Shown one piece after another: positions 801 through 63,071 of a stretch of 64,000 nucleotides of DNA. The translations under genes were made by a program, and so were the position numbers. The notes beneath the pieces are model-generated. The model saw nothing but the letters and a program-made list of their open reading frames with translations, did not search any database and was not told the DNA's origin. This stretch comes from Acidobacteriota bacterium (GTDB taxonomy: Bacteria; Acidobacteriota; Thermoanaerobaculia; Multivoradales; Multivoraceae). Location: assembly GCA_039026915.1 (NCBI GenBank), contig JBCCLJ010000005.1, positions 9,654 to 73,653 of the forward strand, given 5' to 3'. Position 1 is the stretch's first letter; each line of letters starts with the position of its first letter.

Positions 801-821
801 CCGCCTCCACTGGAGAGCCTG

Positions 822-6453: not shown

Positions 6454-6464
6454 GGAGATCGACG

Positions 6465-7217
6465 ATGAGATGGCTTGCGACCCTCGCTCTTCTGGCCATC
6501 GCGGTCTTCGCGCCGGAGGCCGCGAAGGCCCAGAATCGCTGCTACAACTGTCATCTCGCCCAGCAGCGTGAGGAAGACGCCGATCACCTGCGGGACTGGC
6601 GCGATTCGGTCCACGACCGCGCCGGCGTCGGCTGTGAGGACTGCCACGGCGGTGACGCCGGCACGCTGGTCCAGCTTCGGGCACATCGCGGCGTGCTGCA
6701 CAGCCTCCTCAGGAAGTCACCGACACACTGGAAGAACCTGCCGTCGACCTGCGGTGGCTGCCACGAGACGCTCTTCGCCGCGGCACAGCGAAGCGCTCAC
6801 TGGGCGCTCTTCTCCGAAGGAGAGCGGCGCGCTCCGTCGTGTGCGACCTGCCACGGACCCCTCGCCGTCGCGGGTCTCGGGTCGGGCGGTCTGAGCGGGC
6901 AGTGCTCGACCTGCCATGAAGCGGATTCCGAAGTTGGCCGCCAGATGGGGCGCAGGAGCTATCTCGCCAGAATTCGGGAGGTGCGGGCTGTCGTGCAGCG
7001 CGTCGGGCGTCGTGTCCTGCAGATCCGCGATCCCGGCGTGCGGCACGACGCGGGGGCCGTCTACTTCGACGGCCAGCAGACCTGGGAGGAGGCGATGGAA
7101 GAAGCCCACGCCTTCGAGCTGACCGAGATGCTGGAGTCGCTCGATCGAGCGGAGGATCGACTGCTGGAGCTCGAGTCGGCGCTCGCTGAAATGAACGAAG
7201 AACAGCGCGAGCGCTGA
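6465..7217 (+). CDS. pentaheme c-type cytochrome (secreted)
   Basis: ATG 6465 preceded by GAGGAG (6453-6458), 11 nt after the stop of the previous gene. Signal peptide MRWLATLALLAIAVFAPEAAKA. Five CXXCH motifs: CYNCH, CEDCH, CGGCH, CATCH, CSTCH. C-terminal Glu/Leu-rich helical tail. Confidence 0.85.
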   Translation: MRWLATLALLAIAVFAPEAAKAQNRCYNCHLAQQREEDADHLRDWRDSVHDRAGVGCEDCHGGDAGTLVQLRAHRGVLHSLLRKSPTHWKNLPSTCGGCHETLFAAAQRSAHWALFSEGERRAPSCATCHGPLAVAGLGSGGLSGQCSTCHEADSEVGRQMGRRSYLARIREVRAVVQRVGRRVLQIRDPGVRHDAGAVYFDGQQTWEEAMEEAHAFELTEMLESLDRAEDRLLELESALAEMNEEQRER

Positions 7218-39001: not shown

Positions 39002-39333
39002 AGCGTCTTCCGGACTTCGTGCCCTTCGAGGTTCGCGCAGAGTCCGCGGGCCCGAGAACCGTAGTCTGAAGGGATTCGAGCTGTAGGACGATCGGCAGAC
39101 GCTGCGCAGAGTTTCCGAGGGCAGACCAGGATTCGCGCCGCTTCTTCGAGGGCCGCGGCGCGCAGAGGATCTACACGCGGCGACCGCACCGTGCGGCCGC
39201 GCTGCGTCAGGGATTCTTGACGCGGCTTTGAATTCCTTCTGGCGCAGTTGGCACTGCGGCTCCCTACACTCCGCACCGTCGCGACCGTCAGGTTTCGACG
39301 ATCCCTTGAACTGTCTTTCGGAAGCCCTCGCCG

Positions 39334-45300: not shown

Positions 45301-48300
45301 GTGACCGGTGTGGTCGTCGATCTGCCCGAGAACGTTGCCGGAGACGTCCTGTCGAACTACGCCGAGCTCGCCTTCGCCACCGGCGGTCCGCTGTCCGATA
45401 CGGCCGAGATCGACGTCGTCGAGCCGGAGCTGGAGCTCGGCAAGTCCATGGGACCGATGGCGGCGCATCGAATCCCGATCTCGCTCTCCGTCGAGAACAC
45501 CGGGTCTGCACCCGCCTACGAAGTGAGGGTGGAAGACGTGCTCGATGACTCGCTCTACGATCTCGACTCCTTTGCTTCGATCGCCGCGCCGACCGGCTTC
45601 GTGCTCGAAGCTCTGGACGAAGGAAGTCAGCTGCGCATCGTTCTGCGTGCCGATCCGGCCTCGAGCTCACCCGACAACGTGATCCTTCCGGGTGAGACGG
45701 TCTCGGCGGACTTCGAGATCGACGCGCTGCGCGGCGCGTCGTCGCCTTCGGCGCTCCCCAATGTGGCCGACGAAGTCGGCGCGACGACCCTTCCGGGGAC
45801 GGATCCGAAGGAGCGCGATGCTTCGGGAAGCACGGTCAGCGTGACGCTCGATCTGCCGATCCTCGAGTCCGACAAGACAGCCTCGCTGCTCGCCGACGCG
45901 GACAACTCGGGCACGGTCTCGCCGGGAGACACGGTGCGCTACGAAGTGGCGTTGACGAACTCGGGCGCCGGCGCGGCCACGGACCTCGTGCTGCAGGACA
46001 CTCCTGACGCCAACACGTCGCTCGTCATCGGCACGGTGGTCGTCGGCGGCTCGGAGGTCGTCGTCTCGGGCAACGGGGCCGGCGACGTCGACGTTCATGT
46101 CACCCTCGCGTCCTTGGCGGCGGGACAGACCTCGACCGTGCAGTACGACGTCGTCGTGGCGCCTGCCCTCGCAGCGGGCATCGAGACGGTCACGAACCAG
46201 GGTGTCTGGACGAGCACGGAAGTCGACCCCGTGGCGACCGATGACCCGTCGGTCCCGGGCTTCGCGGATGCGACGATCGTGCCGGTCGACGCTGCACCGG
46301 ATCTCGGGGTCAGCAAGACCGACGGCGACGAAGACGCGATTCCCACGGGCTTGTTGACCTATCAGGTCACGTACGCGAACGGCGGCAATCAGGACGCCAC
46401 CGGTGTCACGGTCACGGAGACGGTGCCCGACCACTCGATCTATCTCGCGCCGAACAGCAACTACGCATGGTCATGCCCGGACGGCAGCACTGCCGGAACG
46501 CAGTGTGTTGCCAACGTCGGCTCGCTGGCAGCGGGTGCCGGCGGCTCGTTCACCTTCGCTGTCCGGGTCGTCGACCCGCTTCCGGGCGGCGTCACGGCAC
46601 TCGCCAACACCGTGACGATCCAGGACGACGGCTCCAACGGCGACGATCTCGACCTGTCCGACAACCAGGGCTCCGACACCACGCCGATCAACGCCTCGCC
46701 GGGCTTGACGCTGACCAAGTCGGACGGCGATGCGGTCGCCCTCTTCGGTTCGCCGGTCGTCTACACCCTCAGCTACAGCAACGACGGCAACCAGGTCGCT
46801 CAAGGCGTCGTGCTCACCGAAACGGTGCCGGCCGACACGATCTTCGACGCCGCGGCCAGCGCGCCTTCGTCGTGGAGCTGCGGTGATGCCAGCTCCGCCG
46901 GCACGGAGTGCACTCTCTCGCTGGGGCAGTTGGCGGTCGGTGCGAGCGGATCGGAGACGTTCGCGGTGCGCACCTTGGCCTCCGCGGGCGAGGGCGGTCT
47001 TGTGCAGAACACCGCCACGATCCGCGATGACGGCAGCGGTGCTTCGGGGCAGCCCGTCACGGAGAGCGCCAGCGACACGACGCCAGTGCGTGCTCCGACC
47101 CTCACCAAGACGCTGCTGACGTCCGGCGATCTCGTCATCGGACAGGAAGCGATTCTGCGGATCGAGGTCGGCCTGCCCGAAGGAGCCAGCGCCAGCGGCG
47201 TCACGCTGGTGGATGCGCTGCCTCTCGAGCTGCTGGCCGTGCGCCAGGAGAACGGCAGCGCCAGTGCGGGCCTCACCTACTCGGGCTCGCTGGCGGCCGA
47301 CATCGAGTCCGACAGCTTCACCTGGACCCTGGGTGACGTCAGCAACACCGACGGCGACAGCGGGACTCAGGAGAGTTTCGTCTTCGATGTCGTCGTCCAG
47401 GCGAGAAACGTGCTGACGGCGCAGGCGGGCACGATGCTGACGACGACCGCGACGCTCACGTTCGGCGGTCAGACGCGGGACGCTTCGGTCGATCTGAGCA
47501 TCCTCGAGCCCGATCTTTCGCTCGACACATCTTTCGACCAGCTCACGTCCGGGCCCGGTGAGACGGTCACCGTTCGTTGGGAGATCGCGCACACGCAGGC
47601 GAGTGGTGCCTCGGCCCACGATCTGGAGCTGGTGACCGTTCTTCCGGAGGGCCTCACCTACGCGGGCGGCGTCACAGCAGAGCAGGGGCCAGCGCCGACG
47701 GTCGATGCCACGGGCCTGCCCGAGCTGCGCATGACGGTGGCGGAGCTCGAGCAGAACTGGGACGAGTCCAACCCTCTGGTCATCACCTTCGACGTCACCA
47801 CGTCAGGCAGCCTGACCACGCGAGAGACCGTCGACAGCGAAGTGCGGCTCGAGTGGTCCAGCATCGTCGGCGTCCCGGCGTTGCCGGTTCCCGACGATCC
47901 CGCGTCCGGAGAGCGCACCGGCGACAGCGGAGATCCCGGTGGTGCGGCCAACGACTATGTGGCCGAGTCGACCTCGCAGCTCAACAACACCGCGGTCTTT
48001 TCCTTCGAGGATCTGCGAGAAGACGAGACGCTGTCGAACGACTTCGACTACAACGACTTCGTCATCACCGTTGGCGTCACCGAGGAGGTGAATGAGGAGA
48101 ACGAGTGGACCCGCATCGAACTCCTCGTCCGGGCGGAGGCGCGTGGAGCGGCGTTCAATCACGAGCCCTTTCTCGACGTCGGGCTCGAAGGGCCGATCGA
48201 CATTACGCTCGAGACCTACGACGCCGCCGGCGTCCTGACAGGGATCAGTCAGAGCTCGCAGAACGCCACGTTCGTCGAGTCGATCCCGATCTTTGCGGAC

Positions 48301-51300
48301 TCCTACACGGCGCTGCCTTCGTGGCAGGGCGGTTCGTTTCCGTTCACCTCGAATACCGACGCCGCGCAGACTTCGGCCAACCGCGTCGACGGTCTCACGA
48401 CCCGCGTGATCCTCGAGGTTGGAGATCCCAGTCTCAACCCGCGGGTCGTCGACGATCCAGAGACGCTGCATCTCGACGAGGCGACCAATCACCTTCTGGG
48501 CCCGTGGATTCGGGTGCTCAACACCGGACAGGAGATCTACCAGCGTTGGCGCCACCGCGGCGCGACGCAGGATCTCGTGACGGCGGAGCTCTACGGCTCG
48601 AGCACGCCGCTCCTCGGCTTCGGACTCGATCAGGCGACGATCTTCGAGGCGGCGTGGTCGTGGCCGGTCGAGCAGGAGCCGATCTGGGACGCGTATCCCG
48701 AGTTCGTCGACTACACCTACTCCGGATCGACCTCTTTCACCGACTGGTTCGACAGTCCCGCGAGCGGTTTGACCTGGCCGGTGAGCGGCGCCAACCTGGC
48801 GACGCTGCGTCAGGGATCGACGGTGACGTTGCCCCAGGGTTCCTTCGCCTTTACGCACGTCTTCGACTCGCCGCTCAACAGCGCCCCCGCAGTCGCCGAT
48901 CTCGATCGAGACGGCAGCTACGAGGTGGTTGTCGGCTCCTTCCTCAACTGGATCGCCGTACACGGCGCCGACGGAGCGCTGCAGACGCTGATCGATCCGG
49001 CACCGGGGCAGGATCTGTCGTCGGTGTCGTCGGTCGTGGTTGCCGATCTGCTCGGCGACGCGTCGCTCGAGATTCTTCGCGGCTATGACGATGGCGTGAT
49101 TCGCGTCTTCGATGCGAGCGGCGATGAACTGCAGACCTTCCAGCTCGACGGCACCGTCAAGTCGACCCCCGTCGTCGGTGACGTCGACGGCAACGGCAGC
49201 CGTGAACTCTTCGTTCTGGGCGGCGACGCCCGTCTCTACGGTTTCTCGTCGACCGGTGCCCCTCTGCCGGGCTTTCCGCTGGCGGTCGGCGGGCCGGAGG
49301 ACGTTTCGAACAACTGGGTGATCATGCCGTCACCGCTTCTGGCGAACGTCGACGAGTCAGGCTCGCTGGAGGTCGTCGCGGTAACCGCGTCCGGGCGGGT
49401 GCACGTGGTCGGCCTCGATGGGCAATCCCTGCCGGGATGGCCCGTCGATCTCGAGCGGACGGTCCTAGCCTCGCCGGCCGCGGCGAATCTCGATGGATCG
49501 GGCGGTCTCGAGATCGTCATTGCTGACGACCAGGGCGGAGTGACGGCGCTGGGTTCGACCGGGGTCGTCGTCTGGGAGAGTCAGCGCAGCTTGGGAGGCC
49601 CCTCCTCGCCGGCGGTGGGCGATCTCGAAGGCGACGGCTCGCTGGAAGTGGTCGTCGGTTCGATGGATGGCCGGATCTACGCGTACGCCGCCGACGGTTC
49701 CGAGAAGAGCGGTTGGCCGGTGACCACCGCCTCTCAGGTGCAGAGCTCGCCTTCGCTGGTCGACTTCGACGATGACGGCGACGACGAGGTCTTCGTCGGC
49801 TCGTTCGACACCCGCCTCTACGGTCTCGACGGCGACGGCTCCGCTCTGCCGCTCTCCGGTGGAGGGACCTTTCCGGTGGCTCTCGGTGCGGTGCTCGTCT
49901 CCAGCCCCGCGGTGGTCGATCTGCAGGGCGACGGCACGCCCGAGATCGTCGTCGGCTCCTACGACCGCAATCTCTACGCGGTGGAGGCAGGCGGTAGCGT
50001 GCGTCCTCTCGCCAACCTTTGGGGCCAGTTCCGGGGCTCCGCCACGAACCAGGGTACGGCGTCCGAGAGCTTCGTGGAACTCGCCGATCTGAGCGTCGCG
50101 GTGGACGACAACGTCGACTCGGTCGTTGCGGGAACGCAGCTCAACTGGACGGTGCTCGCCCAGAACGCGGGTCCGGACGACGTGCTCGGCGCGACGCTCC
50201 AGGCGACCGTCTCGCCGGAGCTGAGCGGCCTCAGCTGGTCCTGCTCGTCGGCGCTCGGCGCCTGCGGCACCGCCAACGGCAGCGGCGCGCCGGACCTCTC
50301 GCTCGATCTTCCCAGCGGCGCTTCGGCGACGATCACAGTGCAGGCGACGGTGGCCTCTTCGGCCACGGGCACGGTGCCCTTCAGCGCGTCGATCGGTGTG
50401 CCTGCCGGCTTCGCCGACTCGGCGACGGGCAACAACGAGTCCGCCGAGTCGACGCCGGTCGAGCTCGTTGCCGACGTCGGTGTCACGATCAGCGACCGCT
50501 CGAGCTACTACGCACCTGGTAGCCGTCTGCGCTACACGGTCGCCGTATCGAATGACGGCCCCTCGGACGCTTCTGGTACGGCGCTTCAGGTCGCCCTGCC
50601 CGAGGAGTTGAGCTCTGTCTCCTGGACTTGCAGTGCGGGCGGTGGAGCCAGCTGCGCTGCGAGCGGCAGCGGTGCCCCCGATCTGACGCTCGATCTTCCT
50701 GAGGGCGCGCTGGCGGTCTTCTCGGTCTCCGGCGATGTCGATCCCGACGCCGTCGGTGTGCTGACGGCGTCGGCGACGGTCTCCGTCGCTACCGGAATCA
50801 GCGATCCGGTCAGCTCCAACGACGTCGCTTTCGACGAGTCGTCGGCAACGACGCAGAACGACGCCCCCACGGTCGAAACGGTGACCTCACTCTCGGACGA
50901 CGTTCTCGAAGCGTGCCGCGCATCGACCGAACCACTGCAGGGCCTGAGGCTCCTTTTCTCCGAGCCGATGCGCAACAGCGGCGGATCGACTTCGGTCGGC
51001 GACCTCGACAATCCTCAGTCCTACCTGCTGGTGAGCAGCGGCGCGGATCGGGATCTTCAGACCGTCGACTGCGCCGGACCGGCGGGCGACGATCAAGAGG
51101 TGGCGCTGAGCGCAGTCTACGCCGGTGCTGGGTCCACGTCGGTCTCGTTGGAGGTCGACGACCTCGGTCTGCTCGACGGCGCGTATCGGCTGTTTGCCTG
51201 CTCGACGCTCGAGGACCAGGACGGGACGGTGATCGACGGTGACGGTGACGGCTTCGGAGGTGATTCGTTCCGGTTCGATCTTCGAGTCGACTCCGGCAAC

Positions 51301-51837
51301 CTGGTGACGGACGGTCACTTCGACTGCGACCTCGGAGGGTGGCAGGTCGAGGCACCCCCTTCAGAGCTCATCTTCGACGCCACGACCGATGCTGATGACG
51401 CTCAGATCTCGGGCTCGGCTGCGGTCGTCGATCTGACGGGGGCGCCCGACTACACCCTCTCGCGGTGTCTGCCGGTCGAGGGTGCGGAAGGTGTGGCACT
51501 GAGGGTCAGGACTCTGACCGACGCACCGGCCGGTGTCGCCGTCGATCTGAAGATCGGCTGCGAGGTCTTCTCGGACGCGTCCTGCTCGGGCTCGCCCCTG
51601 CTGGAGTACGAGGACCGGATCGAGCTGACGGATTCGTCGGGAGCCTGGAACCACCTGGCGCTGACGGCGCCGTCTCTCGAAGACGCCCTCTCGGCACGAT
51701 GCGCCGTCGCCGTCGAGCAGAAGCAGGGCTTCGGCTTCGAGGTCCGTTTCGATCAGCTGTTCCTTCAGCAGGGCATCTTCGAGAACGGCTTCGAGAAGGG
51801 AATGCTCGGCTGGAGCGAGAAGGCCGACGGTCCCTGA
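39334..51837 (+). CDS. giant (4167 aa) secreted repeat protein: DUF11-type/Ig-like repeats, LruC-like domain, FG-GAP beta-propeller, C-terminal jelly-roll-like domain
   Basis: One uninterrupted ORF. Signal peptide MFLARPLLLLCLLGLLLAPSAAQS. Five alternating module pairs (..IGE.VTYR.V.TLPEGV.. then VVEP.L...K..). More DUF11-like units follow (e.g. DLGVSKTDGD...YQVTYANGGNQDATGVTVTETVP). NDFDYNDFVITV block at 48037. Seven DxDxDG...E.VVGS blades at 48880..50060. Confidence 0.9.
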   Translation: MFLARPLLLLCLLGLLLAPSAAQSQPEADVLVTNAPQALLGESIELQLDFSNVAADSQDVGYGPFVDVVLPINGADGNAGSETADGLTFVSADYLGAAISATQLTFPDDGRDTGCVEHPFAESDTATPLIVCGTPGDVLLVLPLPFGSYVPTQPASTIDLKLDVSALADLGVGLPVHHRAGFRFGADPLDNACCDPSLVSAASNDSTTWPSTEVTPELLAVRKEYLGPENETSTGPNFPRQYRIVLDLADGQSISDVDVIEDLPDSLAYLRLVSTSPTATVLAEPTVGEASSSPTNRLHVNFSSVTGTASNNDAEVVLEFFVPRTDATGSAVVPAASGDDTTAENQVTALGDWSPVDGRDPSGTDNVSFDASGPEHTLSQQALSIQKGVAIAANSGASSATPGDVLEYTLEIQVSDFFAVSSVVVTDVLSDGQSFDQSFTPTLRLTEHGSTTSAGFDAANFTVSADKSPGASAPNTGRTTLTFDLSSELVTRGADALFLGGCVPVGGTGGTPPDCSTFDQGATTATVVFRAVIDEDFSDDFPSGDASVDQGDSLSNDAVVDSALHDVVELQATAATEADDTAAGVKLVFGSISKSIYAIDGNTSFAQPIEISPGDEITYRLEVTMPSADFENLVLSDYLPLPVFSAPEVTQLLSQADATVPAAGTIKFGATDTLLALAGAPSWSVQAASNRLVLDYGDFDAVGSGPVKIDVLFTVTVSDDPFADDLLLTNQMHLEQASTNGGVHVADAIVQFRLRQPLLRFTKGAISSDQPDATFTPSVVGPSLVGTVSSDDLAATPVGSDVADVDAGDLVTFALVVENVGGSGAFDLVVNDALPAGLTVPAGGIDLTVRRGDGLILQTSALGPFGDDRDLFENGLEIVDPSGEAACQEYSASGGSNVVLLTYELEVADAAAVPEAVFENDAGLLQYGGDDGSGSSANHVFGTTEFRDSVSIEIATPQIEKDLTLTSEPHTPDSDPGRPLAIGEAATYRIVVTVPEGVSPQVKLTDQVSSGVRIESVDQVTATPGLSTSVAGGFGAVRTGAVVSGDGRGVTLDFGDLTNANRANGTADTISVYATVRVQNDPEASSGTAVTNSATWSWDGGQVGDSAQQALVVEPALEMSKDVSPGNGDAGDTVSFTLTVTHAGASTADAFDLVLTDALSDPDLALVDGTVSAPGGTVVRGNGGEGDVEVRYDSLALAGSAIVTFDAVLLNSVVAGDILTNVAELSWDSLPGEVAERKYGPTSAGAQVTIGIPDLSKSVLSTSETSTDAAQYSPTVEDLTLGEEVTFRIVATLPEGVTAQVLIVDSMPSSASGVLEAISAQVISVGGSLTPAVPSPTPSFSDVNLGDGLDDRVSFDFGQVTNAPDGVVSAGDQIVLEIVARVADVAANRGGRALTNTALIDFDGALQPTATVDVEVVEPLLEVDKSGDETTGDAGDIVRFVVEVRHDPATSARAFDVLIEDELPPGLSFYGNLQSTGTAEPSTLSEASNTVTAVWDELDVGEVGRFEFDAIVDLGVFPGENLTNEAMLSWDSLPADDDPPGERTGSDSDEHVFTVTLPGVDKTVFSTSESFTGTAQSGPEPDLTIGEQVTYRVVLTLPEGTVTDTTIVDQLPKGSAVLALESSRVVRVGTALGGAGLPSVGAAGTASDTDADGVDDRVQWTLGTVVNTPDGSENAQDEIEVEVVARVIDVAANSYGDDDLVNLATLSHADGSAMDSALVDVVEPQLQITKSASSTLVDAGDTIRFDLQIDHISASSADAFSLVVVDALPSSGLSWAGNGTVVSDCDGLVVDSTSLPTVRFDVSELTRADETCTISYDLDVENTVQPAQSYDNTASLDYDSQPTYVAGETRRRTTSDMETVTILAPGLMKITDTTSLDDTGMTQFGASRPDLAIGEQVDYELTVVFPEGVTENAVVTDLMPADSQTGIVEVIGASVSSIGGQLVATGSGSPVLSDTRLDDGLNDTVTFDFGRVTNTPDGSNTPADRIVLTVTGVVVDLPENVAGDVLSNYAELAFATGGPLSDTAEIDVVEPELELGKSMGPMAAHRIPISLSVENTGSAPAYEVRVEDVLDDSLYDLDSFASIAAPTGFVLEALDEGSQLRIVLRADPASSSPDNVILPGETVSADFEIDALRGASSPSALPNVADEVGATTLPGTDPKERDASGSTVSVTLDLPILESDKTASLLADADNSGTVSPGDTVRYEVALTNSGAGAATDLVLQDTPDANTSLVIGTVVVGGSEVVVSGNGAGDVDVHVTLASLAAGQTSTVQYDVVVAPALAAGIETVTNQGVWTSTEVDPVATDDPSVPGFADATIVPVDAAPDLGVSKTDGDEDAIPTGLLTYQVTYANGGNQDATGVTVTETVPDHSIYLAPNSNYAWSCPDGSTAGTQCVANVGSLAAGAGGSFTFAVRVVDPLPGGVTALANTVTIQDDGSNGDDLDLSDNQGSDTTPINASPGLTLTKSDGDAVALFGSPVVYTLSYSNDGNQVAQGVVLTETVPADTIFDAAASAPSSWSCGDASSAGTECTLSLGQLAVGASGSETFAVRTLASAGEGGLVQNTATIRDDGSGASGQPVTESASDTTPVRAPTLTKTLLTSGDLVIGQEAILRIEVGLPEGASASGVTLVDALPLELLAVRQENGSASAGLTYSGSLAADIESDSFTWTLGDVSNTDGDSGTQESFVFDVVVQARNVLTAQAGTMLTTTATLTFGGQTRDASVDLSILEPDLSLDTSFDQLTSGPGETVTVRWEIAHTQASGASAHDLELVTVLPEGLTYAGGVTAEQGPAPTVDATGLPELRMTVAELEQNWDESNPLVITFDVTTSGSLTTRETVDSEVRLEWSSIVGVPALPVPDDPASGERTGDSGDPGGAANDYVAESTSQLNNTAVFSFEDLREDETLSNDFDYNDFVITVGVTEEVNEENEWTRIELLVRAEARGAAFNHEPFLDVGLEGPIDITLETYDAAGVLTGISQSSQNATFVESIPIFADSYTALPSWQGGSFPFTSNTDAAQTSANRVDGLTTRVILEVGDPSLNPRVVDDPETLHLDEATNHLLGPWIRVLNTGQEIYQRWRHRGATQDLVTAELYGSSTPLLGFGLDQATIFEAAWSWPVEQEPIWDAYPEFVDYTYSGSTSFTDWFDSPASGLTWPVSGANLATLRQGSTVTLPQGSFAFTHVFDSPLNSAPAVADLDRDGSYEVVVGSFLNWIAVHGADGALQTLIDPAPGQDLSSVSSVVVADLLGDASLEILRGYDDGVIRVFDASGDELQTFQLDGTVKSTPVVGDVDGNGSRELFVLGGDARLYGFSSTGAPLPGFPLAVGGPEDVSNNWVIMPSPLLANVDESGSLEVVAVTASGRVHVVGLDGQSLPGWPVDLERTVLASPAAANLDGSGGLEIVIADDQGGVTALGSTGVVVWESQRSLGGPSSPAVGDLEGDGSLEVVVGSMDGRIYAYAADGSEKSGWPVTTASQVQSSPSLVDFDDDGDDEVFVGSFDTRLYGLDGDGSALPLSGGGTFPVALGAVLVSSPAVVDLQGDGTPEIVVGSYDRNLYAVEAGGSVRPLANLWGQFRGSATNQGTASESFVELADLSVAVDDNVDSVVAGTQLNWTVLAQNAGPDDVLGATLQATVSPELSGLSWSCSSALGACGTANGSGAPDLSLDLPSGASATITVQATVASSATGTVPFSASIGVPAGFADSATGNNESAESTPVELVADVGVTISDRSSYYAPGSRLRYTVAVSNDGPSDASGTALQVALPEELSSVSWTCSAGGGASCAASGSGAPDLTLDLPEGALAVFSVSGDVDPDAVGVLTASATVSVATGISDPVSSNDVAFDESSATTQNDAPTVETVTSLSDDVLEACRASTEPLQGLRLLFSEPMRNSGGSTSVGDLDNPQSYLLVSSGADRDLQTVDCAGPAGDDQEVALSAVYAGAGSTSVSLEVDDLGLLDGAYRLFACSTLEDQDGTVIDGDGDGFGGDSFRFDLRVDSGNLVTDGHFDCDLGGWQVEAPPSELIFDATTDADDAQISGSAAVVDLTGAPDYTLSRCLPVEGAEGVALRVRTLTDAPAGVAVDLKIGCEVFSDASCSGSPLLEYEDRIELTDSSGAWNHLALTAPSLEDALSARCAVAVEQKQGFGFEVRFDQLFLQQGIFENGFEKGMLGWSEKADGP

Positions 51838-53648: not shown

Positions 53649-53700
53649 TTGGACGGGTTGTCCGGTTCATTGGACGCGAGCGGTTTATTCGACGTATGCT
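53649..53700 (+). promoter_or_regulatory. candidate promoter with direct repeat TTGGACG-N14-TTGGACG
   Basis: Locally AT-rich intergenic stretch. TTGGACG at 53649-53655 and 53670-53676, 21 bp centre to centre. The second copy could be a -35, with TATGCT (53695-53700) as a -10 at a long 19-bp spacer. Confidence 0.25.
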
Positions 53701-53728
53701 ATATGAGCATTTCGGAAAGGGGCACCTG

Positions 53729-53956
53729 ATGGCGCAGCCTGTACTGTTGGATACCGAGATCGAATTGGATGCGAAGGCGCTGGCGTCTTTCGATGAGCGG
53801 CCCCGCCCGCGGCGGGTCGCCGCCCGGGAGCCCCGGAGGCCGCGCTATCCCGGTGAATCGGCCGTCTCGCGCTGGCACAGGTATTCCGACTGGTGGGCCT
53901 GGGGCGCCGCAGCGTTGACCGTCGTATCGGTCGTCGCTCTCTTCGCCTGGGGCTGA
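53729..53956 (+). CDS. small hypothetical C-terminally anchored membrane protein
   Basis: ATG 53729 follows GAAAGGGG. 75 aa, basic/Pro-rich, ending in the Trp-rich TM helix WWAWGAAALTVVSVVALFAWG. The longer 111-aa track ORF would read through the AT-rich promoter-like DNA. Confidence 0.35.
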   Translation: MAQPVLLDTEIELDAKALASFDERPRPRRVAAREPRRPRYPGESAVSRWHRYSDWWAWGAAALTVVSVVALFAWG

Positions 53957-54068
53957 CGCCCGCCCAGCAGACGCCTTCCGGTGGAGCGGGAGTCGGTCCA
54001 TCCGAGTGTGAGTCCTCGCCACCGCCTGGCGTCGCAGCCTTTCGGGGGCGGTGGTTTATAGTCGACTC

Positions 54069-55214
54069 ATGAAGAACCGCCGAAGAGCCGTCGCTCCGAG
54101 CGTCGCCGTCGCGCTGCTGCTGGCAGCGTCGCTCACGCCGGCGCTGGCCGACGGGGAGACGACGGTTCTCCATCTCGACCGAGTCGTCGAGCTCGAACAG
54201 ACGCTCGCCGACCCCACCGACCTCTGGGTCACCCCCGAGGACCTGACGCGCATCAACGACTTCGTGCTGAAGCCCGAGGGCGCCTGCCTGGACGATCTCT
54301 GTATCCCGATTCCGCGGGGTGAAGGCAGTGACTTCGTCGTCGAGAGCGAGGGCGAGACCTGGTTCAGCCTGACCGCCTTCGCCCGCAAGGTCGGGCAGGA
54401 GTACGTCGCGGACCGCGAGAGTCGCGTCTGGAGCTTCGGAGCCGTGCCGGCGGTGCGCAGCTCGTTTCTGACACGGGCCCAAGCTCCGGAGTTCGTTCTG
54501 CCCGATCGTCAGGGCGAGCCGGTGAGACTCTCCGAGTTTCGCGGTCGCAAGGTGCTGCTGCTCAGCTGGGCCTCCTGGTGAGGATGCTCCAGGGACCTGC
54601 CAGGTTGGCAGGCTTTGTACGAAGAGCTGAAGGATGACGGCTTCGAAGTCATCGCCGTTGCTCAGGATACGGCGGGTGACGCCGCGGCGGGCCCCTTCTA
54701 CGAAGCGGCCAAAGCCACCTTCACGACGCTCATCGACACCAAGCACACGCTGAGCGCGCTCTACGGGATGGTCAACGTGCCGACCGGAGTGCTCATCGAC
54801 GAGGACGGGCAGGTCGTCCGTTTCGACGAAGGCACCTACACGCGCGAGTACCAGGCCGGAACGCTGAGCTTCGGTACCAACGACTACCTGCCGATCGTGC
54901 GCGACTGGGTCGCCCGCGGAGCGGCGAGCGAGTTCGTTCAGGAGGCCGCGGAGATCGCGGACTCCGTCGGTCGCCGAACCGATGCCGAAGCCCGCGCCGA
55001 TGCGGCTTTTCGACTCGCTACCCACTTCGAGCTTCAGGGCGATCGCGAGCGCGCCGTCGTCTACTGGCGCCAGGCGCAGGAGCTGAACCCCGACAGCTGG
55101 AACTACCATCGGCAGGAATGGTCGTACGATCCCGGAAGTGCCGGTGCCAAGTGGTTCCAGAAGTTCCAGAAGCTCGAGGGCAAGCCGTACTACGCACCGC
55201 TGCGTAAGCCCTGA
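54069..55214 (+). CDS. periplasmic TlpA/ResA-like thioredoxin-fold protein, probable selenoprotein (TGA 54579-54581 read as Sec; motif W-A-S-W-U-G-C)
   Basis: Track ORFs 54051..54581 and 54615..55214 share a frame and are separated only by TGA 54579-54581. Read-through gives GRKVLLLSWASW-U-GCSRDLPGWQALYEELKDDGFEVIAVAQD. Signal peptide MKNRRRAVAPSVAVALLLAASLTPALA. A SECIS-like hairpin lies just downstream. Confidence 0.65.
54590..54617 (+). promoter_or_regulatory. candidate bacterial SECIS hairpin
   Basis: 5'-CAGGG(A)CCUGCC-AGGUU-GGCAGGCUUUG-3'. The 6-bp perfect upper stem is 54596-54601/54607-54612. The lower stem has a bulged A and G.U pairs. The apical loop carries GG/U, 23-27 nt from the U of the UGA. 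Confidence 0.5.
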
Positions 55215-58549: not shown

Positions 58550-58599
58550 AGCGTCAGGACCAGCTCCCGCTGCGTCGCGACTTGCACTAGGCTCCGAAC

Positions 58600-59763
58600 A
58601 TGAGCTCGTGGAAGTCTCACTTCTCGCGTTTCTTCGACGCCAACGAGGGCACGCTGCACTTCGCCGCCCACAGTCATCACTACTGGCCCGACGTCACCTT
58701 CGAGGCGCAGCGGGACGTCTGGCGCGACGCCGCGGCGCACGTCGACTCGAAGTGGGACAAGGTGTTCTCCGAGGTCCTTCCGCAGTCGCAGGAGCTCGTC
58801 GCACGCGCGATCGGAGGGAGCGACCCACGGTCGATCGCCTTCGCGGTCAACACCCACGAGCTGCTGTTACGCGTCGTCTCGTGCATCGAGCGTTCGCCGG
58901 TCCGCATCCTGACGTCGGACGCCGAGTTCCACTCCTTCTCGCGTCAGGCACAGCGCTGGCAGGAAGCCGGCGTGGCCAAGATGGAGATCGTCCCTGCCGA
59001 GCCCTTCGACACCTTCGAGGAGCGTTTTCTGGAACGCGCGAGCGGTGACCACGATCTGGTCTACGTCAGCCACGTGGCCTTCAACTCAGGCTTCGTCTTC
59101 GAGCGCTTGGAGGAGCTTGCAGCGTCCGTACCGAAAGAGGCTCTCCTCGTGCTCGACGGCTACCACAGCTTCATGGCGCTGCCCTTCGACTGGAGCGCCG
59201 TCGAAGACCGCGCCTTCTATCTCTCCGGTGGCTACAAGTACGCCATGGCGGGGGAGGGCTGCTGCTTCCTGGTCTGCCCTCCTGGGATCGCCGAACGGCC
59301 CGTGAACACCGGCTGGTACAGCGTCTTCGGCGACCTGCAGAAGCCCAAGGAGCCTGGAACCGTGCCGTATGCGGCCGACGGCATGCGCTTCTTCGGCTCG
59401 ACCTTCGATCCGAGCGGTCTCTACCGACTTCGGGCCGCGCTCAGCCTATGGCAGCGAGAGGGTGTCACTGCAGAGGCGATCCACCGTCACGTCGTCGAAC
59501 TGCAGTCGCGCTTCCTCGAGGCCGTGGCGAGCGGTACCGCGGGTCCGCTGCAAACCGACGACCTGGTGCCGCCGGTCTCAGATCGGCGACGTGGCCACTT
59601 TCTCACCTTTCAGCGTCCGGACGCCCCGGCGCTACACGAGGGGCTGAAGGCGGCCGGGGTGGTCACCGACGTGCGGGGCGATCGGCTGCGCTTCGGTTTC
59701 GGGGTCTACCAGGACTCGGACGACGTCGAGCAGCTCTGTGCACGCCTCAGCGCTGTCGGCTGA
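58600..59763 (+). CDS. kynU: kynureninase-family PLP enzyme (class V aminotransferase fold)
   Basis: LSGGYKYAMAGEGCCFL (PLP-Lys region, compare CTYKYLNGGPG), TGWYSVFG, RRGHFLTF and GVVTDVRGDRLRFGFGVY are collinear with the Pseudomonas KynU C-terminal half as I recall it. Convergent with tryptophan 2,3-dioxygenase. Confidence 0.65.
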   Translation: MSSWKSHFSRFFDANEGTLHFAAHSHHYWPDVTFEAQRDVWRDAAAHVDSKWDKVFSEVLPQSQELVARAIGGSDPRSIAFAVNTHELLLRVVSCIERSPVRILTSDAEFHSFSRQAQRWQEAGVAKMEIVPAEPFDTFEERFLERASGDHDLVYVSHVAFNSGFVFERLEELAASVPKEALLVLDGYHSFMALPFDWSAVEDRAFYLSGGYKYAMAGEGCCFLVCPPGIAERPVNTGWYSVFGDLQKPKEPGTVPYAADGMRFFGSTFDPSGLYRLRAALSLWQREGVTAEAIHRHVVELQSRFLEAVASGTAGPLQTDDLVPPVSDRRRGHFLTFQRPDAPALHEGLKAAGVVTDVRGDRLRFGFGVYQDSDDVEQLCARLSAVG

Positions 59764-59779: not shown

Positions 59780-60937
59780 CTACTTGCCCGGCTCGTAGCG
59801 AAAGCCGTAGGTCTCGGCTCCGTCGATGTCCGGTAGTGCGTCTTTGCGGAGGAGCAGGGTGCGCGTCGCCCAGAGCTCCTTGAAGACGCGGTACTCGAGC
59901 GCCGTGCGGTCGAGGTACTGCACTCCAGCAGAGCCGCCGGTGCCGGTGCGGTTGCCGATGAGGCGCTCGACCATGCGGGCGTGGCGCTGCCTGAAGACGA
60001 TGAAGCTCTGTTCGAGGGTGACGGCGGCGTCGACGACCGCGCGCGGCCAGGCGAGCAGTGGGTGTTCGCGGTAGCTCTCGATGAACAGGATGGCGGCGCG
60101 CGTGCGCATCGTCAGAAAGCGCTCCTCCTCGGGCACGTCCTGCGCGGTCATGTGATCACGGGCGCTCTGCGTCTCGCGGCGGTAGCGGTCGGCGAGCCGC
60201 TGCTCGTCCTCTGCGGTCAGAGCGAACGAGATGGCGCGCTCGGCCAGCGACTCCATCTCGCGCTTCTGGGAGGCGAGGTACTTCTCGACGAACTCGGTGA
60301 CCACCTCGTCATCTCCGTCGTCGTCGGGCTCCGAGCCTTCGATCGGAGTGCGGGCGAGCCAGGCGAGGAGCGCTTCGTTGAGTGACGGTGGATCGTCGAG
60401 TCGCGCCTGCACGCGACGGTAGGCGTCCGACTCCGAGCCATCCGGGTGCCGCAATGCCTGCATGTAGGTCTCGTGGCCGAGCGGAATGCGCTCGTCGCGA
60501 GAGAGTCCCATGAGAATCTCGATCTCCCGCAGCTGAGCCGACTGAAAGCCGCTCGCTGGATAGAGCTTGTCGCGAAAGCCCATGTAGTCGCGCGTCGTCA
60601 TCGTCTCCATGAGGGAGAAGTGGCTCGCCGCGTGGCGCAGGATTTCCGACATGCGTGCGAAGCCGCGCACAGCGGCTCCGAGCGCCGTGTCCGGCACGTA
60701 CTTCTGCGCGAAGAAGTCGCGTGTCGCCTGCAGCTCGCGCAGGAGGAGCTTGAACCAGAGCTCGTCGATCTGATGGATCGTGATGAAGAGGACTTCGTCG
60801 TTGCCGAGGCTTTCCTCCGACTCCGCAACGCCGTTTTGCAGCGCGAGGAGCTCTTCGACCTTGACGTAGTTCCAGTAGGTGACCGGCTTTGGCCTCTCCT
60901 CGTCCGTCTCGCTCTCGCCGCGCTTCCCGTCGCTCAC
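59780..60937 (-). CDS. kynA: tryptophan 2,3-dioxygenase
   Basis: YWNYVKVEELLALQ, DEVLFITIHQIDELWFKLLLREL, YMGFRDKLYPASGFQSAQLREIE, HARMVERLIGNRTGTGGSAGVQYL are TDO signatures. GTG 60937 overlaps the DoxX stop (GTGA). 385 aa. Confidence 0.88.
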   Translation of the reverse strand: MSDGKRGESETDEERPKPVTYWNYVKVEELLALQNGVAESEESLGNDEVLFITIHQIDELWFKLLLRELQATRDFFAQKYVPDTALGAAVRGFARMSEILRHAASHFSLMETMTTRDYMGFRDKLYPASGFQSAQLREIEILMGLSRDERIPLGHETYMQALRHPDGSESDAYRRVQARLDDPPSLNEALLAWLARTPIEGSEPDDDGDDEVVTEFVEKYLASQKREMESLAERAISFALTAEDEQRLADRYRRETQSARDHMTAQDVPEEERFLTMRTRAAILFIESYREHPLLAWPRAVVDAAVTLEQSFIVFRQRHARMVERLIGNRTGTGGSAGVQYLDRTALEYRVFKELWATRTLLLRKDALPDIDGAETYGFRYEPGK

Positions 60938-61344
60938 GGTTCGCGTCGCACGCCGAGCTGCGTGAAGATCAGCGCGGCCCCCGTCATCGTCAGGCCCTTG
61001 AGGAAGAAGGACATCTGAATGCCGCGCATCATGTCGTCGGTTGCTTTGACCATCTCATAGCCATGCACGACGAAGGTCACGGGCACGAGAAAGATCGCGA
61101 CCAGCCAGGCGCCGAGCTTCGGCTTCCAGTTGAAGAGGATCATGACGGCGCCAGCCAGCTCGACGACGCCCGAGATGAGCACCCAGAACACCTTCGCGGG
61201 AGCCGCCTCCGGCATGAGCGAGACGTAGCCGTCGATGTCGGTGAAGTGGGTGATGCCGGAGAGGAAGAAGATCAGGGTGAAGAGAACGCGACCGGCGATG
61301 CCGATCGCCGGATGGTGAATCTCGACGTCGTTGCTGGAGCTCAT
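60934..61344 (-). CDS. DoxX family membrane protein
   Basis: 136 aa, four TM segments. GRVLFTLIFFLSGITHF...VVELAGAVMILFNWKPKLGAWLVAIFLVPVTFVVH is the DoxX pattern. Confidence 0.75.
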   Translation of the reverse strand: MSSSNDVEIHHPAIGIAGRVLFTLIFFLSGITHFTDIDGYVSLMPEAAPAKVFWVLISGVVELAGAVMILFNWKPKLGAWLVAIFLVPVTFVVHGYEMVKATDDMMRGIQMSFFLKGLTMTGAALIFTQLGVRREP

Positions 61345-62132: not shown

Positions 62133-63071
62133 TCAGTCGAACCGCAACTCCGGCAGCTTCGCGACGATTTCCTCGCGTTGATCGGCCCACTGCTTCGGCA
62201 GCGACAGAGTGCTGCCGAGCTCCTCGAGCGGCTCGTCGACGGTCCAACCCGGGTCGAGGTTGGAGAACTCGACGTTGATGCCGCCGGGCTCGGTCATGTA
62301 CATCGAGTGGAACCACTTGCGATCGCGCAGGTCGGTAAGGATCAAGCCAGCACCGCTGAGCACCCTCCAGAGCATTTCCATCTGCTCCTTGGACTCGACG
62401 GTCAGCGCCACATGGTGAATGCCGCCGAGGCCCCAGTGGCCCCAAGGAAGATCGGCGCCATCGAGCAGATCGATGAAGCCGGTCGCACCGTCGTCGGCGA
62501 ACGCGATGCGCGTGCGGCCGTTCTCCTCGCCGACGACTTTGCCCTGCAGGAGCTGAGTGAAAAAGCCCAGGCTGAGCTCGGGGAGGCGAGAGATCAGCGT
62601 CGAGCTGTGGAAGCCACGGACCTTGTTCGTGTCGTCGAGATCGCCGAGGGCCGGCGGGTTGCGCTCGTCGTCATGCTCGATCAGCTCCGACGGGATGCCG
62701 GAGGGGTCCTGGTAGCCGAGGACCGCTTCGCCGAAGCGCTCGCCGCGTCGCTCGGTCGGCAGACCGTGTGCCTTCAGGCGCTCTTCCCAGAAGTCGAGAG
62801 AGCCTCTGGGCACCGAGAAGGCAACGTCGCTGATCGTGCCGCGCCCGCGCTTCCAGGGCGGCAGCGGCGTGTCTTCGAAGAAGAAGTTGGTCATGATCGT
62901 GCCGGCGTTGCCGTCGTGATCGCCGTAGAAGAGGTGCCACTGGTCGGCCGTCTCGTGGTTGATCGTTTTCTTGACCCGGCGCAGGCCCAGAACCTTCGTG
63001 TAGAAGTCGTGGTCCTTCTGACCATCGGTCGCGGCTCCGGTGATGTGGTGCAGTCCTGTGACCCAGGTCAT
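62133..63071 (-). CDS. two-domain VOC (glyoxalase/bleomycin-resistance fold) ring-cleaving dioxygenase-like protein
   Basis: ATG 63071 follows GAGGAG. GLHHITGAATDGQKDHDFYTKVLGLRRVKKTINHETADQWHLFYGD and a second GGIHHVALTV...FHSMYMTEPGGINVEF module. Confidence 0.75.
   Translation of the reverse strand: MTWVTGLHHITGAATDGQKDHDFYTKVLGLRRVKKTINHETADQWHLFYGDHDGNAGTIMTNFFFEDTPLPPWKRGRGTISDVAFSVPRGSLDFWEERLKAHGLPTERRGERFGEAVLGYQDPSGIPSELIEHDDERNPPALGDLDDTNKVRGFHSSTLISRLPELSLGFFTQLLQGKVVGEENGRTRIAFADDGATGFIDLLDGADLPWGHWGLGGIHHVALTVESKEQMEMLWRVLSGAGLILTDLRDRKWFHSMYMTEPGGINVEFSNLDPGWTVDEPLEELGSTLSLPKQWADQREEIVAKLPELRFD

What the first reader, a model, noticed from the sequence alone, without database searches (positions are those of the whole stretch)
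54069..55214. In-frame TGA at the redox-active position of a TlpA/ResA-like protein, with a SECIS-like hairpin: probable selenoprotein split in two by ORF calling
Track ORFs 54051..54581 and 54615..55214 are in the same frame. The only stop between them is TGA 54579-54581. Reading through gives ...FRGRKVLLLSWASW-[TGA]-GCSRDLPGWQALYEELKDDGFEVIAVAQD... The TGA therefore sits where periplasmic thioredoxin-fold reductases (TlpA/ResA/DsbE) carry the N-terminal nucleophilic Cys, and a resolving Cys follows two residues later (U-G-C). The protein has a signal peptide. Eight nt after the TGA an RNA hairpin can form (54590..54617: CAGGG(A)CCUGCC-AGGUU-GGCAGGCUUUG). Its G/U-containing apical loop lies 23-27 nt from the UGA, which is the geometry expected for bacterial SECIS elements. 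From memory, a curated family is named for exactly this motif (ResA-like WAxxUGC), so the family is probably known. The U-x-C spacing, rather than CxxC, then fits that family and is not an error. No Sec-decoding genes are visible in this window.
Basis: partly seen in the sequence, partly recalled or inferred. Interest (0 to 1): 0.75.

Follow-up and report, generated by a model that had tools for sequence, protein, structure and literature searches.

The report
Known UGC selenoprotein gene, split by ORF calling
The two adjacent ORFs are one gene for a secreted thioredoxin-fold protein whose in-frame TGA almost certainly encodes selenocysteine; it belongs to a predicted selenoprotein family that is already catalogued, so the finding is correct but ordinary.

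Summary
TGA 54579-54581 is the only stop between two same-frame ORFs. Reading through gives a 381-aa protein (54069-55214) with the motif W-A-S-W-U-G-C.

- The best family match is NCBIfam NF041054, "ResA-like WAxxUGC motif-containing protein" (285 bits; curated cut-off 300).
- 67 of 80 related species genomes and 65 of 71 distinct metagenome sequences carry TGA at exactly this codon. The rest carry TGC or TGT.
- All 131 distinct TGA forms have a 6-bp hairpin 14 nt after the UGA. It shows compensatory synonymous changes (Leu CUG/UUG with Gln CAG/CAA, p = 2e-9). It is degraded in most Cys forms.
- The window's hairpin (-15.3 kcal/mol) meets all four published bacterial SECIS criteria.
- Both halves of the gene show similar purifying selection.

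The family is already known. [quoted passage not shown] No experimental characterisation appears in what I read.

Not testable here: whether this genome has selA, selB, selC and selD. None lies in the 64 kb. The substrate is unknown, and no gene neighbour is conserved.

Small additions: the N-terminal domain with an invariant C-x4-C matches no Pfam family or solved fold. Rare relatives have TGG or AGA at the Sec codon and keep the hairpin.

The parts
54069..55214 (+). Whole gene: 381-aa precursor of a UGC-motif, TlpA/ResA-like selenoprotein, including the internal UGA (Sec171) and the terminal TGA at 55212-55214
   Evidence: Read-through translation. It aligns along its full length with Cys homologues of 370-400 aa at 40-54% identity. 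NF041054 E = 7e-85.
54069..54146 (+). Predicted signal peptide (residues 1-26, MKNRRRAVAPSVAVALLLAASLTPALA|D)
   Evidence: Read directly from the sequence. Homologues also start with hydrophobic leaders, some of them Tat-like RRxFL. No predictor was run.
54150..54452 (+). N-terminal beta-rich domain (residues 28-128) with invariant K68, G71, C73 (54285-54287) and C78 (54300-54302), plus nearly invariant P69 and P80
   Evidence: Invariant columns in alignments A1 and A4. AF2 model has pLDDT 95. No Pfam hit. No PDB fold match, best E = 1.1.
54477..54854 (+). Thioredoxin-fold domain (residues 137-262) carrying W-A-S-W-U171-G-C173
   Evidence: Pfam AhpC-TSA 76 bits and Redoxin 64.5 bits. PDB profile hits to ResA, TlpA and 3kcm. 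Foldseek on a homologue model matches ResA with target TM-score 0.76-0.82 and rmsd 1.3-1.6 A for the tight local alignments.
54579..54581 (+). UGA read as selenocysteine (residue 171)
   Evidence: Same codon is TGA in 67 of 80 genome loci and TGC/TGT in 13. With metagenome loci added: 131 distinct TGA sequences and 19 Cys.
54596..54612 (+). Conserved core of the bacterial SECIS hairpin: stem CCUGCC/GGCAGG, loop AGGUU (54602-54606)
   Evidence: -10.4 kcal/mol. 92.8% of cells paired over 67 distinct sequences. Two pairs show compensatory changes, with 0 of 500 shuffles as high. Fisher p = 2e-9 and 3e-9.
54590..54617 (+). Extended hairpin in this window only: lower stem CAGGG/CUUUG with bulged A54595
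   Evidence: -15.3 kcal/mol. The lower five pairs are not conserved in register across the family, at roughly 40% paired.
54876..55211 (+). C-terminal helical domain (residues ~270-381) with one TPR-like repeat (310-342) and invariant W344, N345, R348, Q349, Y374 and Y375
   Evidence: Pfam TPR_2 and TPR_1, both below the gathering score. Invariant columns. Helices in the AF2 model of the homologue.

Best explanation
Window 54069-55214 is a single gene for a secreted (periplasmic) 381-residue selenoprotein. It belongs to the catalogued 'UGC-containing TlpA/Prx-like' family (NCBIfam NF041054, WAxxUGC).

How decoding works (inferred, not shown for this organism): during translation, the hairpin 14 nt downstream of UGA 54579-54581 recruits SelB carrying Sec-tRNA(Sec). 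The core of the hairpin is 54596-54612. Its GGU-containing loop lies 23-27 nt from the UGA. Selenocysteine is therefore inserted instead of terminating the chain.

What the protein does (inferred from the fold): Sec171 sits where ResA and TlpA carry their N-terminal nucleophilic Cys, at the start of the first helix of the thioredoxin fold. The resolving Cys173 follows after only one residue (U-G-C). That is ResA's W-C-x-x-C motif shortened by one residue. By analogy with the family fold, the protein cycles between selenol/thiol and an intramolecular selenenylsulfide to exchange with disulfides or thiols of an unknown periplasmic partner.

Other domains: a family-specific N-terminal domain with an invariant C-x4-C pair and a C-terminal helical (TPR-like) domain probably contribute substrate binding or an internal relay. 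This is speculation.
For: - One reading frame with a single internal TGA.
- Top family hit is NF041054 WAxxUGC_long, E = 7e-85. The next hits are ResA and TlpA. Pfam gives AhpC-TSA and Redoxin.
- Full-length Cys homologues have W-A-S-W-C-x-C at the aligned column. About 45 database fragments of ~210 aa begin just after the motif; these are split Sec forms.
- TGA at the same codon: 67 of 80 species-representative genomes, spanning Acidobacteriota, Planctomycetota, Gammaproteobacteria and others, and 65 of 71 distinct metagenome sequences.
- Hairpin: it is at a fixed position in all 131 distinct Sec forms. The Leu/Val codon is always NUG (131 of 131), against 8 of 19 in Cys forms.
- Compensatory synonymous changes: CUG..CAG 43, UUG..CAA 9, mismatch 1 (p = 2e-9). 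GAC..G 31, GAU..A 21 (p = 3e-9).
- Local hairpin energy is -9.1 kcal/mol in Sec forms against -4.9 in Cys forms (p = 3e-9).
- All four published bacterial SECIS criteria are met (PMC13188914, Fig. 2 legend; energies).
- dN/dS is similar upstream (0.17-0.46) and downstream (0.25-0.57) of the TGA.
- Fold: ResA/TlpA for the central domain.
- The family is listed as a predicted selenoprotein family in PMC2398784 and PMC13188914.
Against: - No selA, selB or selD homologue and no tRNA-Sec lie in the 64 kb, so the host's ability to decode Sec is unverified.
- No other selenoprotein gene is in the window.
- The NF041054 score (285.4) is below the curated cut-off of 300.
- Taken alone, the window's hairpin is not energetically unusual (z = -1.0).
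- In a 66% G+C genome, the peptide L-P-G-W-Q written in the usual codons CUG and CAG would form most of the core stem anyway. Two of five Cys forms with the same peptide keep all six pairs.
- Function and substrate are inferred only from the fold. No conserved gene neighbour helps.
- No experimental study of the family turned up in the papers read.
Confidence: 0.9

Rival explanations
1. Pseudogene. A Cys codon (TGC or TGT) mutated to TGA, leaving a dead gene whose two halves are still recognisable.
For: TGA is one substitution from TGC or TGT. Cys forms of the family exist. Sec machinery is not seen in the window.
Against: The same TGA occurs in 131 distinct sequences across phyla, together with a co-varying hairpin that Cys forms mostly lack. 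The downstream half is as conserved as the upstream half. There are no further stops or frameshifts.
Confidence: 0.03
2. Relic in a genome that has lost Sec decoding. The gene descends from a true selenoprotein gene, but here UGA now terminates, so only the 170-residue N-terminal fragment is made.
For: The Sec-decoding trait is patchy in bacteria. No sel gene is visible in the window. Relatives exist in which the Sec codon has become TGG or AGA while the hairpin remains, so the position does change.
Against: The 3' half shows no decay and dN/dS is well below 1. The hairpin here is the most stable of the sequences examined apart from one. 64 kb is about 1-2% of a typical genome of this kind, so absence of sel genes from it says nothing.
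Confidence: 0.05
3. Sequencing or assembly error at one base of a TGC or TGT codon.
For: A single-base difference would be enough. Reads are not available to me.
Against: The closest relatives (L046 at 64% and L004 at 62% identity; L001-L003) all have TGA plus the hairpin. The window carries the full Sec-form signature: D-L-P-G-W-Q, CUG/CAG and GAC..G.
Confidence: 0.02

Closest known systems
NCBIfam NF041054 'ResA-like WAxxUGC motif-containing protein' (WAxxUGC_long). [quoted passage not shown] 2026 (PMC13188914).
   Same: Exact W-A-x-x-U-G-C motif with in-frame TGA. The three-domain protein aligns along its full length. Cys homologues carry C-x-C. E = 7e-85 to the model.
   Different: It scores 285.4 bits against the curated cut-off of 300. 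Undoubted Sec-form relatives range from 253 to 336 bits, so the cut-off covers only part of the homologous group. The closest sequences found are 62-64% identical.
ResA / TlpA / DsbE / StoA periplasmic thiol-disulfide oxidoreductases (e.g. PDB 1st9, 1su9, 1jfu, 3kcm)
   Same: Thioredoxin fold: target TM-score 0.76-0.82, rmsd 1.3-1.6 A for the tight local alignments, 30-35% identity over ~115 residues. W-x-x-W precedes the nucleophile. A cis-Pro loop (N-V-P) is present. Extracytoplasmic location is predicted.
   Different: The active site is U-G-C (or C-x-C), one residue shorter than C-x-x-C (alignment to 3kcm). Sec replaces the nucleophilic Cys. It has an extra N-terminal domain of about 100 residues and a C-terminal helical domain of about 110 residues. 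There is no conserved linkage to cytochrome c maturation or Sco/Cox genes.
Bacterial SECIS elements (consensus model of Zhang & Gladyshev, as summarised in PMC13188914)
   Same: Hairpin inside the coding region just 3' of UGA. 6-bp upper stem. 5-nt loop N-G-[G/U]-N-U with G in the second position. 20 nt between the UGA and the loop. -10 to -15 kcal/mol.
   Different: No Rfam family matches it. The stem is written entirely in the codons of a conserved peptide, D-[LV]-P-[GV]-W-Q, so RNA and protein constraints are superimposed. SelB binding is untested.
Peroxiredoxins (Pfam AhpC-TSA, PF00578)
   Same: PF00578 is the best Pfam hit, at 76 bits and above the gathering score. This is why the 2008 paper called the family 'Prx-like'.
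   Different: It lacks the P-x3-T-x2-C peroxidatic motif. The residues at -3 and -7 from U171 are Ala and Leu. Profile and fold searches rank ResA and TlpA above peroxiredoxins.

Membership tests
NF041054 WAxxUGC_long / UGC-containing TlpA (Prx-like) selenoprotein family | W-A-x-x-U-G-C motif with the U encoded by an in-frame TGA | tested here: met
   W167-A-S-W-U171-G-C173; TGA at 54579-54581.
NF041054 WAxxUGC_long / UGC-containing TlpA (Prx-like) selenoprotein family | HMM score at or above the curated cut-off (300 bits) | tested here: not met
   285.4 bits, E = 7.2e-85, scored with C in place of U. Six Sec-form relatives scored 253-336 and three Cys forms 264-325. The shortfall reflects a narrow cut-off, not a different family.
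NF041054 WAxxUGC_long / UGC-containing TlpA (Prx-like) selenoprotein family | Full-length 'long' architecture: N-terminal C-x4-C domain, thioredoxin fold and C-terminal helical domain | tested here: met
   Collinear alignment over 91-100% of the query with 370-400-aa homologues. Invariant residues occur in all three parts.
Bacterial selenoprotein gene (general) | UGA aligns with Cys in homologues | tested here: met
   Cys is in that column in 22 of 25 aligned homologues. 13 of 80 genome loci have TGC or TGT there.
Bacterial selenoprotein gene (general) | SECIS hairpin meeting the consensus: loop of 3-9 nt, stem of 4-16 bp, G in the first two loop positions, 16-37 nt from UGA to loop, MFE <= -7.5 kcal/mol | tested here: met
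   Loop AGGUU, 6-bp stem, 20-nt spacing, -10.4 kcal/mol (core) and -15.3 kcal/mol (extended). Covariation.
Bacterial selenoprotein gene (general) | Coding conservation continues 3' of the UGA | tested here: met
   51-64% amino-acid identity and dN/dS 0.25-0.57 downstream, similar to upstream.
Bacterial selenoprotein gene (general) | Host genome encodes selA, selB, selC (tRNA-Sec) and selD | not testable with these tools
   Only 64 kb is available and none lies in it. The window's contig was not found in the look-up index.
Bacterial selenoprotein gene (general) | Selenium is actually incorporated | not testable with these tools
   This needs 75Se labelling or mass spectrometry.
TlpA / ResA / DsbE C-x-x-C oxidoreductases | Thioredoxin fold with a W-x-x-W context before the nucleophile | tested here: met
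   PDB profile hits at E = 1e-19 to 5e-23. Foldseek match to ResA with target TM-score ~0.8, using a model of Cys homologue P0002.
TlpA / ResA / DsbE C-x-x-C oxidoreductases | C-x-x-C active-site spacing | tested here: not met
   U-G-C. The HMM alignment to 3kcm places a one-residue gap inside W-C-P-P-C. The Cys forms are all C-x-C.
TlpA / ResA / DsbE C-x-x-C oxidoreductases | Genomic association with cytochrome c maturation or Cu-oxidase assembly genes | tested here: not met
   No ORF cluster is shared by more than 8 of 82 loci. The window neighbours are a hydrolase, DUF6503 and BNR proteins.
Peroxiredoxin (AhpC/TSA) | P-x3-T/S-x2-C peroxidatic motif | tested here: not met
   The sequence before U171 is L-L-L-S-W-A-S-W, with Ala at -3 and Leu at -7.

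The most novel reading that the evidence does not exclude
The family may not be a ResA-like reductase. It could instead be a periplasmic oxidase, isomerase or peroxide/selenium-handling enzyme. Its strained one-residue U-G-C selenenylsulfide would give it a much more oxidising, PDI-like chemistry. That CxC motifs behave this way in engineered thioredoxin is recalled from memory and was not checked here. The N-terminal C-x4-C domain, of unassigned fold, might act as an internal redox relay or metal site. Nothing in my evidence excludes this. No experiment on the family turned up.
Probability: 0.25. Interest if true: 0.45.

Novelty: new member of a known kind. Interest (0 to 1): 0.25.

Why it matters
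- Annotation: the two ORFs should be merged into one selenoprotein gene. Standard ORF callers and the public protein collections split most members of this family. About 45 fragments of ~210 aa turned up.
- Organism: the gene implies that the organism, probably an Acidobacteriota-like bacterium, decodes Sec.
- Biology: this is a widespread, uncharacterised extracytoplasmic selenoprotein of soil and marine bacteria with an unusual U-x-C site.
- SECIS example: the comparative data give a clean case of a bacterial SECIS written inside a conserved peptide and supported by synonymous-site covariation.
- None of this changes current understanding.

Tried and rejected
- Rfam at gathering thresholds and at permissive E-values finds nothing relevant. 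The only hit is a chance miRNA match at E = 5.8.
- Single-sequence folding significance is not informative in G+C-rich DNA.
- tblastn of E. coli SelA, SelB and SelD against the window and against the 6-kb flanks of 83 related loci finds no hit. The sel genes are therefore not linked to this gene, and the trait in this genome cannot be tested.
- Search for other TGA-split genes in the window: the other same-frame, coding-like ORF pairs (stops at 798-800, 19899-19901, 29380-29382 and 62133-62135) are ordinary adjacent genes with their own starts and leaders.
- Conserved gene neighbourhood across 82 loci: none.
- Exact look-up of the window's contig through the neighbouring protein: not on record.
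Cys homologue P0002 was modelled instead. Model coordinates are not exposed, so distances between the N-domain cysteines and the active site could not be measured.
- Fold search of the N-terminal domain against the PDB: nothing below E = 1.
- A literature search for 'WAxxUGC' returns nothing. The family was found under other names.
- A bioRxiv paper on MauE CXC motifs concerns a membrane protein and is not relevant.

Full report
**1. Observation**

- ORFs 54051..54581 and 54615..55214 are in the same frame.
- Translating 54069-55214 gives 381 codons with a single internal stop, TGA at 54579-54581.
- The context is ...RKVLLLSWASW-U-GCSRDLPGWQALYEEL... Sec would be residue 171. A Cys (TGC 54585-54587) follows at residue 173.
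- The N-terminus, MKNRRRAVAPSVAVALLLAASLTPALA|DGE, has the form of a signal peptide. I judged this by eye only.
- The hairpin CAGGG(A)CCUGCC-AGGUU-GGCAGG-CUUUG is at 54590-54617. RNAfold predicts it. Folded alone it gives -15.3 kcal/mol, and its 17-nt core gives -10.4 kcal/mol.
- In 66% G+C DNA this stability is unremarkable on its own: z = -1.0, and 31 of 200 shuffles fold as well. The case has to rest on comparison with relatives.
- The second track ORF's TTG start (54615) lies inside the 3' arm of the hairpin.
- The simple scan finds no promoter or terminator between the two halves.

**2. What the protein is**

I scored the protein with C in place of U.
- Its best NCBIfam match is NF041054, "ResA-like WAxxUGC motif-containing protein" (WAxxUGC_long): 285.4 bits, E = 7e-85, curated cut-off 300. 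ResA, TlpA and StoA models follow.
- Pfam gives AhpC-TSA and Redoxin over residues 137-252, plus one sub-threshold TPR repeat at 310-342.
- A profile of the family hits solved ResA, TlpA and related thioredoxin-fold proteins over residues ~125-258.
- The alignment to 3kcm shows W-A-S-W-C-.-G-C against W-A-T-W-C-P-P-C. The active-site motif is therefore one residue shorter than the usual C-x-x-C.
- An AF2 model of a 54%-identical Cys homologue (P0002) is confident (pLDDT 91, pTM 0.88). Its central domain superposes on ResA with target TM-score 0.76-0.82 and rmsd 1.3-1.6 Å for the tight local alignments.
- The N-terminal ~100 residues contain invariant K68, G71, C73 and C78, with nearly invariant P69 and P80. 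They model confidently from the window's own sequence (pLDDT 95).
- That domain has no Pfam match and no neighbour among solved folds (best E = 1.1).
- The C-terminal third is helical, with invariant W344, N345, R348, Q349, Y374 and Y375.

**3. Is the TGA a selenocysteine codon?**

A protein search returned two kinds of hit:
- about 66 full-length homologues (355-431 aa) with W-A-S-W-C-[GQRKLAM]-C;
- about 45 fragments of ~210 aa that begin just after the motif (MDLPGWQ..., MYEEL...). This is what gene callers produce from a Sec form.

DNA confirms this.
- The closest fragment's contigs have TGA at the aligned codon, with an upstream 169-aa ORF.
- Of the 80 best loci from species-representative genomes, 67 have TGA at exactly this codon and 13 have TGC or TGT.
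- The TGA forms come from Acidobacteriota (several classes), some Planctomycetota, Gammaproteobacteria (Pseudohongiellaceae, SAR86), Rhodothermaeota, Hydrogenedentota and others.
- 9 of the 13 Cys forms are Planctomycetota.
- Metagenome contigs add 65 distinct TGA and 6 distinct Cys sequences.
- Between the window and six Sec-form relatives, dN/dS is 0.17-0.46 upstream of the TGA and 0.25-0.57 downstream. dS is near saturation, so the ratios are approximate. The 3' half is under the same kind of selection as the 5' half.
- A nonsense mutation, an assembly error or two independent genes cannot explain this pattern.

**4. The hairpin**

- All TGA forms carry a stem [CU][CUG]UGCC / GGCA[GA][GA] with a 5-nt loop N-G-[GU]-N-U. 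The stem starts 14 nt after the UGA.
- Over 67 distinct sequences, 92.8% of the cells of the six pairs are standard pairs. Sliding the partners by 1-3 columns gives 28-66%.
- Two pairs change on both sides in 30 cells, and 0 of 500 shuffles reach the observed covariation.

The stem lies in the codons for D-[LV]-P-[GV]-W-Q, so the informative changes are synonymous ones.
- The first base of the Leu codon tracks the third base of the Gln codon: CUG..CAG 43, UUG..CAA 9, CUG..CAA 1, UUG..CAG 0 (Fisher p = 2e-9).
- The third base of the Asp codon tracks the first base of the codon after Gln: C..G 31, U..A 21, C..A 7, U..G 1 (p = 3e-9).
- These counts ignore phylogenetic non-independence. Both variants nevertheless occur in several clades.
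- The Leu/Val codon ends in G in 131 of 131 distinct Sec forms, against 8 of 19 Cys forms.
- The Sec-form peptide is almost always DLPGW or DVPVW. Cys forms show twelve variants.
- Local folding energy averages -9.1 kcal/mol in Sec forms and -4.9 in Cys forms (p = 3e-9).
- As a control, I looked at five Cys forms that keep the DLPGWQ peptide. Two keep all six pairs and three do not (CUC, or CUG with CAA). The peptide therefore favours the stem but does not enforce it.

The window's hairpin satisfies every published criterion of the bacterial SECIS consensus (PMC13188914, Fig. 2 legend):
- loop of 3-9 nt;
- stem of 4-16 bp;
- G in the first two loop positions;
- 16-37 nt from UGA to loop (20 here);
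- MFE ≤ -7.5 kcal/mol.

The five extra lower pairs present in the window (54590-54594 with 54613-54617) are not conserved in register elsewhere.

**5. What could not be shown**

- The window has no tRNA, no Rfam hit and no SelA, SelB or SelD homologue.
- It has no other TGA-interrupted gene. The four other same-frame ORF pairs are ordinary neighbours.
- 64 kb is a small fraction of such a genome, so this absence is uninformative.
- The contig is not in the look-up index, and the rest of the genome is not available to me.
- The sel genes are not linked to this gene in the 83 related loci either.
- Function beyond "extracytoplasmic thiol/selenol oxidoreductase" is inference.
- No neighbour is conserved across loci.
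- In the window the neighbours are an α/β hydrolase, a DUF6503 protein, two BNR-repeat proteins, a kynureninase-like protein and tryptophan 2,3-dioxygenase.

**6. Comparison with what is known**

- The family was reported as "Prx-like (UGC-containing)" in the Global Ocean Sampling selenoproteome. That study found 46 selenoprotein sequences in 15 samples and 855 Cys homologues, and found the family more abundant in non-marine samples (PMC2398784).
- NCBIfam has a curated model for it.
- The window protein falls 15 bits short of that model's cut-off. Undoubted Sec-form relatives score 253-336 bits and Cys forms 264-325 bits. The cut-off simply covers a subset of the homologous group.
- It is not a canonical TlpA/ResA, because the spacing is U-x-C, there are two extra domains, and there is no Ccm or Sco gene context.
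- It is not a peroxiredoxin, because it lacks the P-x3-T-x2-C motif.

**7. Verdict**

- I put the selenoprotein reading at about 0.9. The remainder is mostly the possibility that this particular genome no longer decodes Sec.
- The gene is a new member of a catalogued but experimentally uncharacterised family, at 62-64% identity to the nearest sequences found.
- Interest is low. The main practical consequence is to correct the annotation.

The modest additions here are:
- the synonymous-site covariation evidence for the SECIS element;
- the unassigned N-terminal C-x4-C domain;
- rare relatives in which the Sec codon is TGG or AGA while the hairpin is intact.

Noticed in passing
L086:1501-2655; L087:1501-2661; L088:1501-2661: Three related contigs have a sense codon one base away from TGA at the Sec position: AGA (Arg) in L086 and TGG (Trp) in L087 and L088. 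All keep the SECIS-type hairpin intact (GAUCUGCCAGGCUGGCAGA; GACUUGCCAGGCUGGCAAG). They could be recent losses of the catalytic residue, base-call errors, or natural inactive variants. L087 and L088 may derive from the same reads.
   Followed up: partly
window 54150-54452 (+): The N-terminal domain of the selenoprotein has invariant K68, G71, C73 and C78. It models at pLDDT 95 but matches no Pfam family and no solved structure (best Foldseek E = 1.1). It may be an undescribed small beta-rich domain specific to this family.
   Followed up: partly
window 39310-51837 (+): A single 4175-codon ORF with coding-like composition. It carries five DUF11 repeats, FG-GAP and beta-propeller-like segments, DUF7619 and DUF7507. 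It is probably a giant cell-surface protein.
   Followed up: partly
window 58591-59763 (+) and 59780-61054 (-): A kynureninase-like aminotransferase class-V protein and a tryptophan 2,3-dioxygenase lie convergently next to each other, which suggests a kynurenine pathway for tryptophan breakdown.
   Followed up: no
window 3-800 and 801-2228 (+): Two coding-like ORFs in the same frame are separated only by TGA 798-800. The second has its own Met and a Tat-like leader (RRTVLRGVGAAVALPFL). I judged them ordinary adjacent genes, not a second selenoprotein. No family search was run on them.
   Followed up: partly
L007 (~6000-7113); proteins P0042, P0061: Some orthologues have twin-arginine (Tat-like) leaders (MKRSEFLAVAGG, MQRRDFLRLAG, MKRRSFLLASG), whereas the window's leader looks Sec-type. 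The export route of this selenoprotein may therefore differ between lineages.
   Followed up: no
window 53685-55109 (-): A 474-codon antisense ORF overlaps the whole selenoprotein gene. Such shadow ORFs are common in this G+C-rich window. An equivalent antisense ORF clusters across 79 related loci only because it mirrors the conserved gene.
   Followed up: yes
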